Assembly (NCBI GenBank): GCA_964016885.1
Contig: OZ024740.1
Location: 326,740,001 to 326,804,000 of the forward strand
Direction of reading: 5' to 3'
Origin: Eledone cirrhosa
Lineage: Eukaryota
DNA: 64,000 nucleotides
How positions within the stretch are numbered: position 1 is the first letter of the stretch; every line of letters begins with the position of its first letter. A model generated the notes under the pieces. It did no database searches. It was given only the letters and a program-made list of their open reading frames with translations, and was not told the DNA's origin. Positions 40,607 through 62,661 of the stretch are shown here, one piece after another. The position numbers and the translations under genes were made by a program.

Positions 40607-40657
40607 AAATATTAAACAAATAATGAATAAACAATTCCTTATATTAAACAAAAAAAG

Positions 40658-40812
40658 TTCATTATTTAACGATCGTTTCTAGGATATATATGTGTTAGAA
40701 TTGGTATGCATATTCAACAGATCTATGTACAAAATTATACAAAATTATACAAATTATCAAGATTAAATATACATACCAAACACATATATACGCCGTCTTC
40801 AGAAATAATGAA
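40658..40812 (-). ncRNA. Type I hammerhead ribozyme with ~115-nt stem II
   Basis: Reverse complement of 62099-62253. Confidence 0.78.
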
Positions 40813-43800
40813 GTATATTTATTGATAATAACAACAATTCAAAATTTCAGGTCCGTTTGGGAACAAAAATTGACCAATGAAAACACAAAGGGTTAAATGC
40901 AGTTCGGTGTGTGTATATACATGTAAAACCCTTACACATATTTTACAAAAATGTATGTATAACTTGTATACGCATACTAAAAGGATGGATGCAAATACAA
41001 AATTTCAAGGTTAATGTCTCTGTGAGTTTATAATGCACAAATAAGATGCGTATTGACACTTATGAAGTTAAGTATATAAATATATTTTTTCATACTCACA
41101 CATATCCGTACAATCACACATACACGCGCGTATATGCATAAATATACACATAACCACGAACATACAAACACACACACACCCCCACTCACATTTATATATG
41201 TGGATATAAAATCATAAGCACATGGATATTAATTCACTCACATAAAACACTGGCACACACATTTTCAGATCAAGATACAGAAATTAGGTGGGAGGGGGGG
41301 GAGGGGTCAGTATTCAACGGTCTGAGTAGACTGCCTAATATAAATGTATCTATAAACTAAGAAAAATAAACAAATAAAATAATAAAATATAATAAATAAA
41401 ACATTAAGGAGGAAAGAATAGAAAGAAAAACAGAAAAAAGAAAAAAGAAAAAAGAAAAAAGAAAAAAGAAAAAAGAAAAAAGAAATATATCAAGAAAATA
41501 AATATACACACATACACATATATACACATACATATATATATATATATATATATATATACACACACACATATATATATATATAAAAACATACATATATATA
41601 CACATATACACTCACACATCCATACATAAATATACACACATATATAAACACATACATACATATACACACATCCACACTAAGAACATACATACACACACAT
41701 ATATAAACCTATACATATACACACATACATACATATACACATATACATACAAATACACATACATATATATATACACACATATATATATATATATATATAC
41801 ATATATATACATATATATGTATATACACGTACATATACACACACATATACCTATAATCACACATACTATACAGACACAGATATATATAACCACACACATA
41901 CATGCACATATACAACACTTACATACTAATATACATACAGATATACACATACATAGCTATATATACACACAAATATATACAGACTTACATATATACATAC
42001 AGACAAATACTTACGCATCTATATATCGGTATATACATACAAACACCACTACACTATCACACAACATAGAAATACAAAGAGAAAGGTATATACCTATACA
42101 CACATACATATACAAATAGAAAAACATATATATATATATATATATATATATATATATACACACACACATACATATACATATATATATATATAACATATAT
42201 ATACATATATATATATATATATATATACACATACAAATACACATACACACACATACAGATATATACACATACATACATATACACACATATAGAAATATTT
42301 ACGCATACATACATACACACATACATATAAAGTCATAGACATCCATACATCTACACGAACATACATATACACATATATAAAGATATATATACACACACAC
42401 ACACACACACGCAACACATACACACATACACATATATATAAAAAAATAAATAATAAAGATATATACATATATATATACACATACATATATATATATATAC
42501 ACATACACCTAAATATACATACACATACATACACACATACATAGACATACATGTACATACATATACGTACACCGATATACATATATATATATATATACAC
42601 ACATAGACATATACATACATACACACACAACTTACATACACACATATATATACATGTATATTCATACATAGAATTAGAAATATAATCATACATACATATG
42701 CACTTACTTATACTCATATATACAAATACATACGCATCCATATATGCGTATATACATAAAAAACCACTACAACCTCACCTAACTCAGACATACAAATAAA
42801 ATAATAATAAAAAGGCATATGTATATACATACACACACGCATTAATAGAGATATATATATACACACATACACATATACATATATATATATATATATATAT
42901 ACATATATATATATACATATATACACACATACAATCATACATATATATATATATATATATATATACATAGATATCCACACACTCATACCACCATAAATAC
43001 ACATACAAACACCCACATATAGATATATATACACACGCATATATATATATATATATATATATACACACACATAAAAAACAGACATGCACATATATATATA
43101 TTTTTTTACACTTATATATACACATATTATATACATATACACAACTTCACTTATACACACATACACATAAGTTATATTATAATAATAAAAAATAATATAT
43201 ATATATATATATATACATATATATATATATATACATACATACATATATATATATATATACATATATATATATACATACAAACACATACATACACATATAC
43301 ACACATATGAATATAGACATATATTCACACATAGACACCTATATATATATATATATATATATATATATATATATATACACACATACATATACACAGACAC
43401 ATATACACACTCACATATATATATGTGTGCATGCACACACACATATATACATACATACACATATATACACATAAACACATATATGTGCATACATGCACAT
43501 ACACACACATATATCACATAGATACGGAGATAGACATATAAATAGAGAGACATACATATATATACAACACACATACACACACATACATACACACGCATAT
43601 ATATATATATACATATATATATATACATATATATATTCCTATATATACACATATACATATATATATACACATATATACACATACATACACATATACGTAC
43701 ACACATTCACATACACATACATATATACATGCATATATACACACATATACATACATACACACACTCATATATACACACACAATCTTACATTCATATTTGC

Positions 43801-45062
43801 ATGCGCATATATGTATTTTTATATTTAGATATAAATACCCAAACCTATATAGACACCTACCTACATATATATTCATACATAGACGCTTACAAATACAGAT
43901 GATAATAGTATGGGGGAAAGGGGGGGTTTGGAGAAGGGGATCAAAGTAAATATATGTTTCAAGAAACATAGAATATTTTCCGTATCTTTATCCAATGTAT
44001 GTTTTTACATATTACCAGTGTTAGGAAATACAACAAACAAAAACTAAGGCAAAATCTATGCATCTCAAAATAAACAAGTATACCATTAACTATATGTTAA
44101 CTAAACCAAAGATAGTTAACATATTGATTTCTAAGGTGTAAATTAGTTAGGTTTATAATATTTGAAGCAGAATTTTGAAGTTAAATAGTAGTAGAGTATT
44201 AATTACAGTATAACTAAATTAAAGTTAATAACGTTATGGTATCAATATTAGGAAATGAAATTAGTAATAGGGAAAAAAACAAATAAAATAAAGTAGTACA
44301 TCGGTAGTAGAATATAAATTATAGGTTAACTAAATTAAAAATTATATATTTATTTCTATAGTATATGTTAATTAGGTATACAATACATAAAGCAGATATT
44401 GTATTTCATCAATAGCATAATAAATTAATATAATTATATGCAAATAGAAATCAAAATTAATACGCATACATATACATATACATACACATACATATATACA
44501 TATATATACACACACATATATACACATATATATACATATATACACATATACATACACACACACATACACATACACATATACATATACATATCATTTTTCA
44601 AAAAATTGCATAGAATATATTAACTAGGTATATATCCAAAACACATCCCATTCTATGATTACATGACATTCTGCAATTCGTCTGTATAAAGAAACTAATT
44701 TTAAGCAAATTAAAATTAAATTTTTAGGTTGATTAAAACTAAAACCAAATTATAAATATATTTCTAAAATGTATATTAATTAGGTCAATAATACTAAAAA
44801 TTATTTCTCTGTCATTGGATACACGATATTATTTTGTTATATTTTATCTGTAAAAGAATTATAATAAAAATAATAAAAGGTTTAAATAAATTAAAATTAA
44901 TCTATAAATTAAATTACTAAGTATATATTAGTAATATTTAAAGGTTTTTCACAATTTATGATTACATAATATTTTATATTCTGATCTGTAATAAAATTTT
45001 AATTAAATTAAATTTATAGGTTAACTAACATTTAAATTAAATTAATTTCTAAAATAATGTTG

Positions 45063-60800: not shown

Positions 60801-62098
60801 TGTTTTTCTATTTGTATATGTATGTGTGTATAGGTATATACCTTTCTCTTTGTATTTCTATGTTGTGTGATAGTGTAGTGGTGTTTGTATGTATATACCG
60901 ATATATAGATGCGTAAGTATTTGTCTGTATGTATATATGTAAGTCTGTATATATTTGTGTGTATATATAGCTATGTATGTGTATATCTGTATGTATATTA
61001 GTATGTAAGTGTTGTATATGTGCATGTATGTGTGTGGTTATATATATCTGTGTCTGTATAGTATGTGTGATTATAGGTATATGTGTGTGTATATGTACGT
61101 GTATATACATATATATGTATATATATGTATATATATATATATATATATGTGTGTATATATATATGTATGTGTATTTGTATGTATATGTGTATATGTATGT
61201 ATGTGTGTATATGTATAGGTTTATATATGTGTGTGTATGTATGTTCTTAGTGTGGATGTGTGTATATGTATGTATGTGTTTATATATGTGTGTATATTTA
61301 TGTATGGATGTGTGAGTGTCTATGTGTATATATATGTATGTTTTTATATATATATATATGTGTGTGTGTATATATATATATATATATATATATATGTATG
61401 TGTATATATGTGTATGTGGTATGTGTGTATATTTATTTTCTTGATATATTTCTTTTTTCTTTTTTCTTTTTTCTTTTTTCTGTTTTTCTTTCTATTCTTT
61501 CCTCCTTAATGTTTTATTTATTATATTTTATTATTTTATTTGTTTATTTTTCTTAGTTTATAGATACATTTATATTAGGCAGTCTACTCAGACCGTTGAA
61601 TACTGACCCCCCCCCCCTCCCACCTAATTTCTGTATCTTGATCTGAAAATGTGTGTGCCAGTGTTTTATGTGAGTGAATTAATATCCATGTGCTTATGAT
61701 TTTATATCCACATATATAAATGTGAGTGGGGGTGTGTGTGTGTTTGTATGTTCGTGGTTATGTGTATATTTATGCATATACGCGCGTGTATGTGTGATTG
61801 TACGGATATGTGTGAGTATGAAAAAATATATTTATATACTCAACTTCATAAGTGTCAATACGCATCTTATTTGTGCATTATAAACTCACAGAGACATTAA
61901 CCTTGAAATTTTGTATTTGCATCCATCCTTTTAGTATGCGTATACAAGTTATACATACATTTTTGTAAAATATGTGTAAGGGTTTTACATGTATATACAC
62001 ACACCGAACTGCATTTAACCCTTTGTGTTTTCATTGGTCAATTTTTGTTCCCAAACGGACCTGAAATTTTGAATTGTTGTTATTATCAATAAATATAC

Positions 62099-62253
62099 TT
62101 CATTATTTCTGAAGACGGCGTATATATGTGTTTGGTATGTATATTTAATCTTGATAATTTGTATAATTTTGTATAATTTTGTACATAGATCTGTTGAATA
62201 TGCATACCAATTCTAACACATATATATCCTAGAAACGATCGTTAAATAATGAA
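62099..62253 (+). ncRNA. Type I hammerhead ribozyme with ~115-nt stem II
   Basis: TTCATTATTT CTGAAGA cggcg TATATATGTGTT TGGTATG...CATACCA..AACACATATATA tccta GAAA CGATCG TT AAATAATGAA; 10-bp stem I, palindromic stem III. Confidence 0.8.
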
Positions 62254-62661
62254 CTTTTTTTGTTTAATATAAGGAATTGTTTATTCATTATTTGTTTAAT
62301 ATTTTATCTTGACTCTGTATACCGTTTATCTTTCACCGAAAGTGGTTTTTCATTACATCTCTTCTTTCCATGATATCCGGAATACATTGAGTTCTTCATA
62401 CGGATTGGACACTACCGTAAACTCTTGGTAGATTTATCTACATATATATATATATATATATATATATATATATATATATATAATATATAATATATATATA
62501 TATATATATATATATATATATATATATATATATATATATATATATATATATATATATATATATATATATATATATATAATATATATATATATATATATAA
62601 TATGTATATATATATATATATATATATATATATATATATATATATATATATATATATATAT

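What the first reader, a model, noticed from the sequence alone, without database searches (positions are those of the whole stretch)
40607..62441. 22-kb single-family PLE concatemer: tandem 7.2-kb units plus an inverted unit
Seen: on minus, a partial repeat, then ORF, 4.5-kb UTR and hammerhead twice; on plus, a 5'-truncated third unit. They join at an ACACA microhomology (55870-55874), with both 3' ends facing outward into (TA)n. Copies differ by only a few SNPs and slippages. Inference: one recent event in which a circular or concatemeric template was reverse-transcribed more than twice and both target strands were primed. The unit appears unusually long for a PLE.
Basis: partly seen in the sequence, partly recalled or inferred. 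Interest (0 to 1): 0.72.

Follow-up and report, generated by a model that had tools for sequence, protein, structure and literature searches.

The report
Long Penelope retroelement copied in laps
This 22-kb array is one two-armed insertion of an abundant, unusually long Penelope-type jumping gene; the layout recurs at many places in this animal's genome, and the family's copies suggest the enzyme likely copies a one-unit RNA circle round and round, although this array's second full unit may have been added later by recombination.

Summary
In detail: two head-to-tail 7.19-kb units plus an 885-nt partial unit on minus, joined at ACACA to a truncated inverted unit, four hammerheads, (TA)n on both sides. 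It is a Hydra-clade Penelope-like element with thousands of copies, 2.4 times longer than any listed Hydra family. The layout is not unique: 12 other multi-unit loci were mapped, one 38.8 kb.

One two-armed insertion is well supported: the arms end at two fixed sites flanking a 137-nt tail (one of each in 28 of 28 mapped insertions), and units differ by 0.05-0.11% versus 0.47% to the nearest other locus. Family-wide variants show the repeated part is copied from a single-unit template (66 alleles fixed in all three copies, 1 missing upstream). A third of copies start at one base, a likely RNA 5' end, yet no second lap stops there, which favours a hammerhead-cut RNA circle, proposed in 2014 but unshown.

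Whether this array's second full unit is a lap or a later unequal crossover is undecided; 5 of 12 other arrays show later duplication. No RNA or spanning reads. Earlier scan notes saw the same two-site pattern in this genome's retrozymes.

The parts
38840..40606 (.). (TA)n-rich target array, left flank
40604..47793 (-). Unit 1, 7190 nt, terminal unit of the long arm; ends at site A (no tail)
40658..40812 (-). Type I hammerhead; predicted cut after 40668; 40809 is the family's sharp 5' stop (A of TCATT, likely RNA start, inferred)
41494..43803 (-). 2.3-kb microsatellite-like (TA/TG) part of the 4.46-kb 3' UTR of unit 1
45063..47504 (-). Intact 812-aa ORF: RT (YRDD at 346) and C-terminal GIY-YIG-like nuclease with CxCx5C linker
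47657..47793 (-). 137-nt tail between sites A and B at the unit 2/unit 1 joint
47794..54989 (-). Unit 2, 7196 nt; hammerhead 47848-48002; ORF 52258-54700 broken by a 1-nt insertion at 54372
54990..55874 (-). Partial unit (pseudo-LTR), last 885 nt of the unit; hammerhead 55044-55198
55870..55874 (.). ACACA overlap at the inversion joint
55870..62307 (+). Inverted arm, 5'-truncated unit (unit positions 755-7190); hammerhead 62099-62253
62308..62444 (+). 137-nt tail, ends at site B
62442..62662 (.). (TA)n target array, right flank

Best explanation
This is one insertion of a 7.19-kb Hydra-clade Penelope-like retroelement into (TA)n with two outward-facing arms that end at two fixed sites, and its repeated units were likely copied from one unit-length, probably circular RNA, with the long arm likely going just over twice round. 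Shown: the layout, the two end sites, their pairing, the common origin of all four copies, and that across the family the upstream repeat carries the same alleles as the terminal units. Inferred steps: (1) a tandem source is transcribed from the A of TCATT at the 5' edge of the hammerhead; (2) hammerhead cuts at two successive copies release a unit-length RNA that a host ligase closes; (3) the RT-nuclease, probably a dimer, nicks both strands of (TA)n and primes one cDNA at site A and one at site B, 137 nt apart; (4) on uncut linear RNA these cDNAs run off after 206 or 343 nt and give the abundant mini-insertions, on the circle they go on (here 15.3 kb and 6.6 kb); (5) the two cDNAs anneal at ACACA and are filled in. 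Arrays of this family can also gain units later by unequal crossover, and for unit 2 of this array that is nearly as likely as an extra lap.
For: End pairing: 9 of 10 two-armed insertions in a positional sample have one A and one B end, one is A/A (checked in 75); 20 of 20 partner ends seen from 48 B ends are A (25 not seen, 3 partial); 28 of 28 in targeted loci (one nested locus left out). Both end sites recur in other sequencing runs (loose ends at 47657, 47794, and a fold-back at 47999). Monophyly: 0.05-0.11% between full units, 0.47-0.59% to the nearest sampled locus; one allele is in all four copies and in no other close copy listed. Single-unit template: in 14 insertions with one junction-crossing arm, 14,870 sites, 66 locus-specific alleles are in all three copies, private alleles are 9, 8, 7, and only 1 is shared by the terminal copies alone; the 201-nt stretch after the cut site is identical at inner joint and outer end in 16 of 21 loci, 6 of them locus-unique. 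5' stop: 3087 of 9011 hammerhead copies lack the template TC before that A, but 0 of 30 second laps that reach it stop there. No length change at the cut site in 223 copies. Second-lap lengths predict 6.7 arms past a second joint on contig C1, 5 seen.
Against: One derived base (41607 and 48784) is shared by units 1 and 2 only, 2 of 13 genome-wide hits; a circle does not pass an error from lap to lap. 5 of 12 other multi-unit arrays show nested sharing that needs DNA-level duplication. In two loci the upstream partial unit keeps an ancestral base that the other copies lack. In the Anolis element hammerhead mutants still inserted in vitro and no RNA reads began or ended at the cut site (PMC11167929). 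No RNA from this family was seen; cleavage, ligation and the start site are untested. Second-lap lengths are approximate map readings, 5 or more arms on C1 were not mapped, and contraction of longer arrays could inflate long partial units.
Confidence: 0.45

Rival explanations
1. The insertion was an ordinary 1.1-unit arm (pseudo-LTR plus one unit) with an inverted arm; unit 2 was added afterwards by unequal crossover between the 885-nt partial unit and the 3' end of unit 1.
For: The base shared only by units 1 and 2 lies just 5' of the partial unit, where such a crossover would copy unit 1; three microsatellite lengths also group units 1 and 2. The process is shown elsewhere: at C1:183.74 Mb the inner units are recombinants with derived alleles from both parents and one switch interval; at C1:126.85 Mb a foreign 385-nt insert is identical in two adjacent units; at C2:47.0 Mb, with a 730-nt partial unit, the two full units share 2 derived bases.
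Against: Units 1 and 2 are no closer to each other (5 of 4682 sites) than to the inverted arm (2 and 4 of 3927), so the duplication would have to be early; likelihood ratio 0.4-1.7. One such shared allele also occurs in a locus with no extra unit. One base groups unit 2 with the inverted arm instead, at a site that varies in other arrays.
Confidence: 0.35
2. The template is linear with a 343-nt terminal repeat (from the 5' stop to the end of the tail); cDNA primed near the 5' end runs off and jumps to the 3' repeat, as in retroviral strong-stop transfer, once per lap.
For: Explains the single-copy behaviour equally and the sharp stop; one mini-insertion repeats the 13 nt at the stop three times (L236); priming near the 5' end and no need for cleavage match the Anolis data.
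Against: Each lap would need a jump, yet 0 of 30 second laps stop there against 34% overall or 5 of 32 in the closest subfamily (hand count from the rows); no scars at that site in 181 read-through copies.
Confidence: 0.12
3. A long linear read-through RNA of a tandem source locus was copied once along its length.
For: Proposed for the Anolis element; tandem sources with intact ORFs exist (44 of 58 mapped ORF starts give a full protein); two loci show an ancestral base in the upstream partial unit.
Against: Predicts separate upstream and terminal lineages; found 66 alleles fixed in all copies against 1 confined to the terminal copies, and upstream copies no more diverged (P = 0.003 for at most 1 if 8 were expected).
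Confidence: 0.04
4. The array is an assembly artefact or a pile of independent insertions.
For: 99.9% identical 7-kb repeats between long TA runs are hard to assemble; no record spans the array; other families do nest in these TA runs.
Against: Each unit has its own variants; joints are exact with no TA between units; one A and one B end; the same layout at contig C281 and others; the family differs by 0.3-5.9% between loci, so independent insertions would not be 0.1% apart.
Confidence: 0.04

Closest known systems
Hydra clade of C-terminal EN+ Penelope-like elements (Craig et al. 2021, PMC8557442; read: section 11, section 15, text part 2, passages, supplement part 2)
   Same: Single ORF, RW motif, DKT, CxCx5C linker, no CCHH inside the GIY-YIG core, hammerhead near the 3' end, (TA)n target, partial tandems with an inverted truncated copy and a tail at one end.
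   Different: Unit 7.19 kb against 1.1-3.0 kb for the 27 listed families; 4.46-kb 3' UTR with 2.3 kb of microsatellite-like sequence; tail 137 nt against 30-40; hammerhead stem II of 116 nt; arms of up to about 3.9 units.
Poseidon element PAc of Anolis (Frangieh et al. 2024, PMC11167929; read parts 1-2 of 4, main text)
   Same: Two RT start sites flank the tail, downstream of the hammerhead; both strands of AT-rich DNA are cut and extended; dimer predicted.
   Different: They saw no strand difference in start-site use and proposed a multi-copy linear mRNA; here the two arms almost always use different sites and the variants point to a one-unit template.
Hammerhead-circle model for PLE tandems (Cervera and de la Pena 2014, PMC4209133; passages incl. 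Discussion) and animal retrozymes (PMC7229834, passages; 10.64898/2026.07.22.740005, part 1 and passages)
   Same: Type I hammerhead with palindromic stem III; cut ends ligated to circles that template more-than-unit cDNA; RtcB closes retrozyme monomers in vitro.
   Different: Proposed, not shown, for autonomous PLEs; known retrozyme circles are 170-400 nt and non-coding, this unit is 7.2 kb and encodes the enzyme.
Penelope of Drosophila virilis (Schostak et al. 2008, PMC2377424; passages) and Adineta Penelope elements (Arkhipova et al. 2013, PMC3846280; passages)
   Same: Partial tandem flanked by inverted repeats; transcript starts in the upstream pseudo-LTR; tail on one of the inverted repeats; microhomology joints.
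   Different: Those papers saw no mechanism for regenerating the pseudo-LTR, or proposed self-priming; arms of unequal length with different 5' ends, as here, are not explained by fold-back alone.

Membership tests
Penelope-like element (EN+) | Single ORF with RT and C-terminal GIY-YIG nuclease | tested here: met
   YRDD at 346, VYKC...YIG at 693-709; profile hit to a retron RT, E 0.002; C-terminal part near GIY-YIG clusters, 0.95-0.97. Pfam gave no significant hit.
Penelope-like element (EN+) | Partial tandem (pseudo-LTR), inverted truncated copy, one-sided tail | tested here: met
Penelope-like element (EN+) | Hammerhead motif in the pseudo-LTR | tested here: met
   (motif only; cleavage not tested)
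Hydra clade | RWK motif, DKT instead of DKG, no GxKF/Y | tested here: met
   RVRWR at 35 (RWR rather than RWK), DKTG at 115, no GxKF/Y (criteria)
Hydra clade | CxCx5C linker, no CCHH in the nuclease core, CxxC and CxH near the end | tested here: met
   CNCRNKANC at 673, CRLC at 771, CNH at 799
Hydra clade | (TA)n target | tested here: met
   6302 exact tail ends running into TA
Hydra clade | Generally short (<3 kb) | tested here: not met
   6.0-7.3 kb units against 1.1-3.0 kb; a tendency in the paper, not a criterion
Hydra clade | RT phylogeny groups with named Hydra families | not tested
   No named Hydra protein was among the stored sequences; 119 of 120 homologues are unnamed
Naiad/Chlamys | N-terminal GIY-YIG nuclease, no canonical hammerhead | tested here: not met
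   Nuclease is C-terminal and a hammerhead is present
Non-LTR retrozyme | Short non-coding hammerhead repeat expressed as circular RNA | tested here: not met
   7.2-kb coding unit; circular RNA not testable here
Circle-templated retroelement | Covalently closed unit-length RNA in cells | not testable with these tools
   No RNA holder listed

The most novel reading that the evidence does not exclude
An autonomous, protein-coding retrotransposon replicates through a 6-7-kb ribozyme-made RNA circle: a dimeric RT-nuclease primes both DNA ends at two fixed sites on it and can run several laps, which regenerates the pseudo-LTR in every cycle, while the uncut linear transcript yields short run-off insertions. 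The genome record of this family would be the first strong evidence for the 2014 circle model in a full-length Penelope-like element.
Probability: 0.55. Interest if true: 0.75.

Novelty: new variant of a known kind. Interest (0 to 1): 0.52.

Why it matters
How Penelope-like elements, the closest relatives of telomerase among retroelements, rebuild the upstream repeat that they need for transcription is an open question: one paper saw no mechanism (PMC2377424), one proposed ribozyme-made circles (PMC4209133), one a multi-copy linear RNA (PMC11167929). This young family has thousands of copies and enough variation to tell these apart, and it names exact positions to test: RNA start, cut site and two priming sites. 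It also warns that multi-unit arrays alone do not prove rolling-circle copying, because several grew by recombination. The array itself is ordinary for its family.

Tried and rejected
Naiad membership: rejected, the nuclease is C-terminal. Rfam scan: the rows shown were microsatellite-driven matches, no hammerhead. Pfam: nothing significant for this ORF. Contig C1416 as the other allele of this locus: rejected, its flanks and layout differ. Unit 2's three G-to-A changes as a conversion tract from a sister copy: rejected, unit 2 keeps the array's own allele between them and lacks the sister's other alleles. The derived allele of the C1:183.74 Mb inner units as a source haplotype: the three other hits are old, 79-98% similar copies. 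A second ribozyme in the tail: only a modest fold (z = -2.4), no motif found. A cap-derived G at the 5' stop: 616 of 3087 copies have G there, but the other arm often supplies that G, so it is not used. Pile-up of 5' ends at the hammerhead cut site: none. Microhomology as a rule at inversion joints: only 5 of 18 have 2 nt or more, 4 have 0-1, 9 have inserts or could not be resolved. Structure prediction did not finish and was not used. Solved-structure search with the nuclease part alone: nothing. Earlier findings by sequence: none. Literature: six answered searches and one more found no paper with allele-level evidence on the PLE template; most subscription papers are not in the library, and supplements other than part 2 of PMC8557442 were not seen.
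Full report
What is there. Unit positions (U) count along the element's sense strand; U1 is window 47793 in the first unit. The minus arm holds an 885-nt partial unit (54990-55874), a 7196-nt unit (47794-54989) and a 7190-nt unit (40604-47793). The plus arm (55870-62444) is a unit truncated at U755 plus a 137-nt tail. The arms overlap by ACACA. The first unit encodes an intact 812-aa protein; the second has a 1-nt insertion at 54372. Each copy ends in a type I hammerhead with a palindromic stem III. Both flanks are (TA)n.

What family. 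[quoted passage not shown] No tree was built. Listed Hydra families are 1.1-3.0 kb; this family's units are 6.0-7.3 kb because of a 4.46-kb 3' UTR. The 3.0-Gb host genome holds 9011 exact copies of the hammerhead start, 6302 tail ends running into TA and 304 exact sites where the tail reads on into a next unit.

The layout is typical. On contig C1, 5 of 43 arms that read through the tail have two or more joints (from the rows). I mapped 12 other loci with at least two full units in one arm, chosen because they were multi-unit. Contig C281 has almost the same layout as the finding; C2:36.29 Mb has 2.9 units in each arm (38.8 kb). Partial tandems with an inverted copy and a one-sided tail are the described form of these elements, and three other families in this window show the one-sided tail too.

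One two-armed event. Copies end at site A (U7190) or site B (U137). In a positional sample 9 of 10 two-armed insertions had one of each and one was A/A; from 48 B ends the partner's end was seen 20 times and was always A; in targeted loci 28 of 28 were A/B, one nested locus left out. These samples overlap in part. Both sites recur in contigs of other runs. Two start sites flanking the tail were shown in vitro for the Anolis element; the strict pairing across the two arms is what this family adds. The window's full units differ by 0.05-0.11% outside microsatellites, against 0.47-0.59% to the nearest of 13 other loci and up to 5.9% between loci, and all four copies share an allele that no other close copy has. 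Independent insertions are thus unlikely.

The template behaves as one unit. In 14 insertions with an inverted arm, an upstream partial unit and a terminal unit, 14,870 clean sites gave 66 locus-specific alleles in all three copies, 9, 8 and 7 private ones, 1 shared by the two terminal copies only and 1 by the two same-arm copies only. A linear transcript of a tandem source would keep upstream and terminal copies as separate lineages. The 201 nt from the cut site to the end of the tail are identical at the inner joint and the outer end in 16 of 21 loci, while other loci differ by a median of 2-7 changes (one of the five exceptions compares two separate insertions). So the copying wraps round: a circle, or a clean jump.

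Circle or jump. Many arms start at exactly U6985, the A of TCATT at the 5' edge of the hammerhead: 20 of 38 distinct truncated contexts, and 3087 of 9011 copies genome-wide lack the two template bases before it. I read this as the 5' end of a linear transcript; that TCATT resembles an initiator is recalled, and a structural stop is possible. Arms on their second lap pass this point: 0 of 30 stop, against 34% overall or 5 of 32 in the closest subfamily (hand count). A jump needed at each lap should fail again; two kinds of template, linear and circular, fit better. There is no length change at the cut site in 223 copies, nor at U6985 in 181, which speaks against sloppy end-to-end jumps. The circle was proposed in PMC4209133, and RtcB closes retrozyme monomers. 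Against it: hammerhead mutants of the Anolis element still inserted in vitro, two loci keep one ancestral base in the upstream copy, and no RNA could be examined.

Was the second full unit a lap? Undecided. For: the three long copies are about equally far apart, and second-lap lengths on C1 predict 6.7 arms past a second joint where 5 are seen. Against: one derived base is in units 1 and 2 only, 2 of 13 genome-wide hits, just where a crossover through the partial unit would copy it. Later duplication is shown in 5 of the 12 other arrays: recombinant inner units at C1:183.74 Mb, a foreign insert in two adjacent units at C1:126.85 Mb, a shared frameshift at C2:36.30 Mb, shared derived bases at C2:170.43 Mb and C2:47.0 Mb. 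Five others are star-like and two have no clean variants. A crude likelihood ratio for this array spans 0.4-1.7. One A/T boundary groups unit 2 with the inverted arm, but it varies in other arrays too.

Limits. Some private variants may be assembly errors. Variant counts exclude microsatellite and gap-adjacent sites; the 31 private calls for one unit are an alignment artefact of a 932-nt deletion (one search gives the true list). Three neighbouring copies at 1.9-4.5% were treated as separate insertions and left out. Short overlaps within a locus reach 0.64%. Loci are a small, partly chosen sample of thousands.

Earlier notes. Eight scan notes on non-coding hammerhead repeats of this genome report two-armed insertions with two fixed start sites and favour a circle, one favours a jump. 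They are unchecked and came after my reading; I tested the jump idea for this family. None concerns this element.

Verdict. Real feature, a long variant of a known clade, ordinary for its family. Its value lies in the family-wide record, which makes the template question testable at named positions. Interest 0.52.

Noticed in passing
window 2584-7225: Two-armed insertion of another Hydra-like family: 1560-nt inverted repeat at 99.6%, ORF 3807-5600 minus (43-48% identical to the array's protein), about 80-nt tail on the right arm only; no canonical hammerhead core found by my pattern.
   Followed up: partly
window 36043-38840: Older two-armed Hydra-like insertion with hammerheads at 36135 (-) and 38666 (+), broken ORF 36340-37671 and a one-sided tail of about 80 nt; the array sits in the TA run next to it.
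   Followed up: partly
window 14220-17040: Inverted-armed element with hammerhead-like cores at 14331 (-) and 16796 (+), a 507-nt tandem at 15394-16405 and a tail of about 145 nt on one side; retrozyme-like, no long ORF.
   Followed up: partly
window 31746-33068 and 1783: Truncated Hydra-like ORF on plus (41% to the array's C-terminal part) and a further hammerhead on minus at 1783.
   Followed up: no
window 19822-20289, 24790-26704, 27349-28008: Fragments of LINE-type RT ORFs; Pfam RVT_1 at 25262-26701, E 1e-10.
   Followed up: no
window 18636-18824: Near-perfect fold-back of about 65 nt around a (TA)n run.
   Followed up: no
window 48119, 48127, 48531: Three G-to-A changes (sense strand) within 412 nt, all in unit 2; the same changes recur in unrelated family copies. 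Unexplained; damage to single-stranded cDNA is one possibility.
   Followed up: partly
L042, L050, L169, L226, L236, L241, L243, L257: Abundant mini-insertions of about 550 nt made of two arms that both start at U6985-6987, some with stuttered 13-nt repeats at the joint; a possible birth route for non-coding hammerhead elements.
   Followed up: partly
G000:C3:215.06 Mb, C1:278.64 Mb, C1:273.67 Mb (L097-L099, L182-L185): Insertions whose B arm is little more than the tail, stopping near site A, as if the other primer blocked it on the same RNA.
   Followed up: no
L045-L046 (G000:C1:147.78 Mb): Both arms carry the same internal rearrangement with an extra tail and 3' piece, so the template itself was rearranged.
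   Followed up: no
L101-L105 (G000:C2:36.29-36.33 Mb): 38.8-kb array, 2.9 units in each arm, the largest seen.
   Followed up: yes
runs X4, X6 (organisms B, C): The family, at 90-99% identity, is also in contigs of runs labelled as other organisms, with site B in X4.
   Followed up: no
window 43800-45060: The AT-rich first 1.3 kb of the 3' UTR holds decayed repeats with a period of about 145 nt.
   Followed up: no
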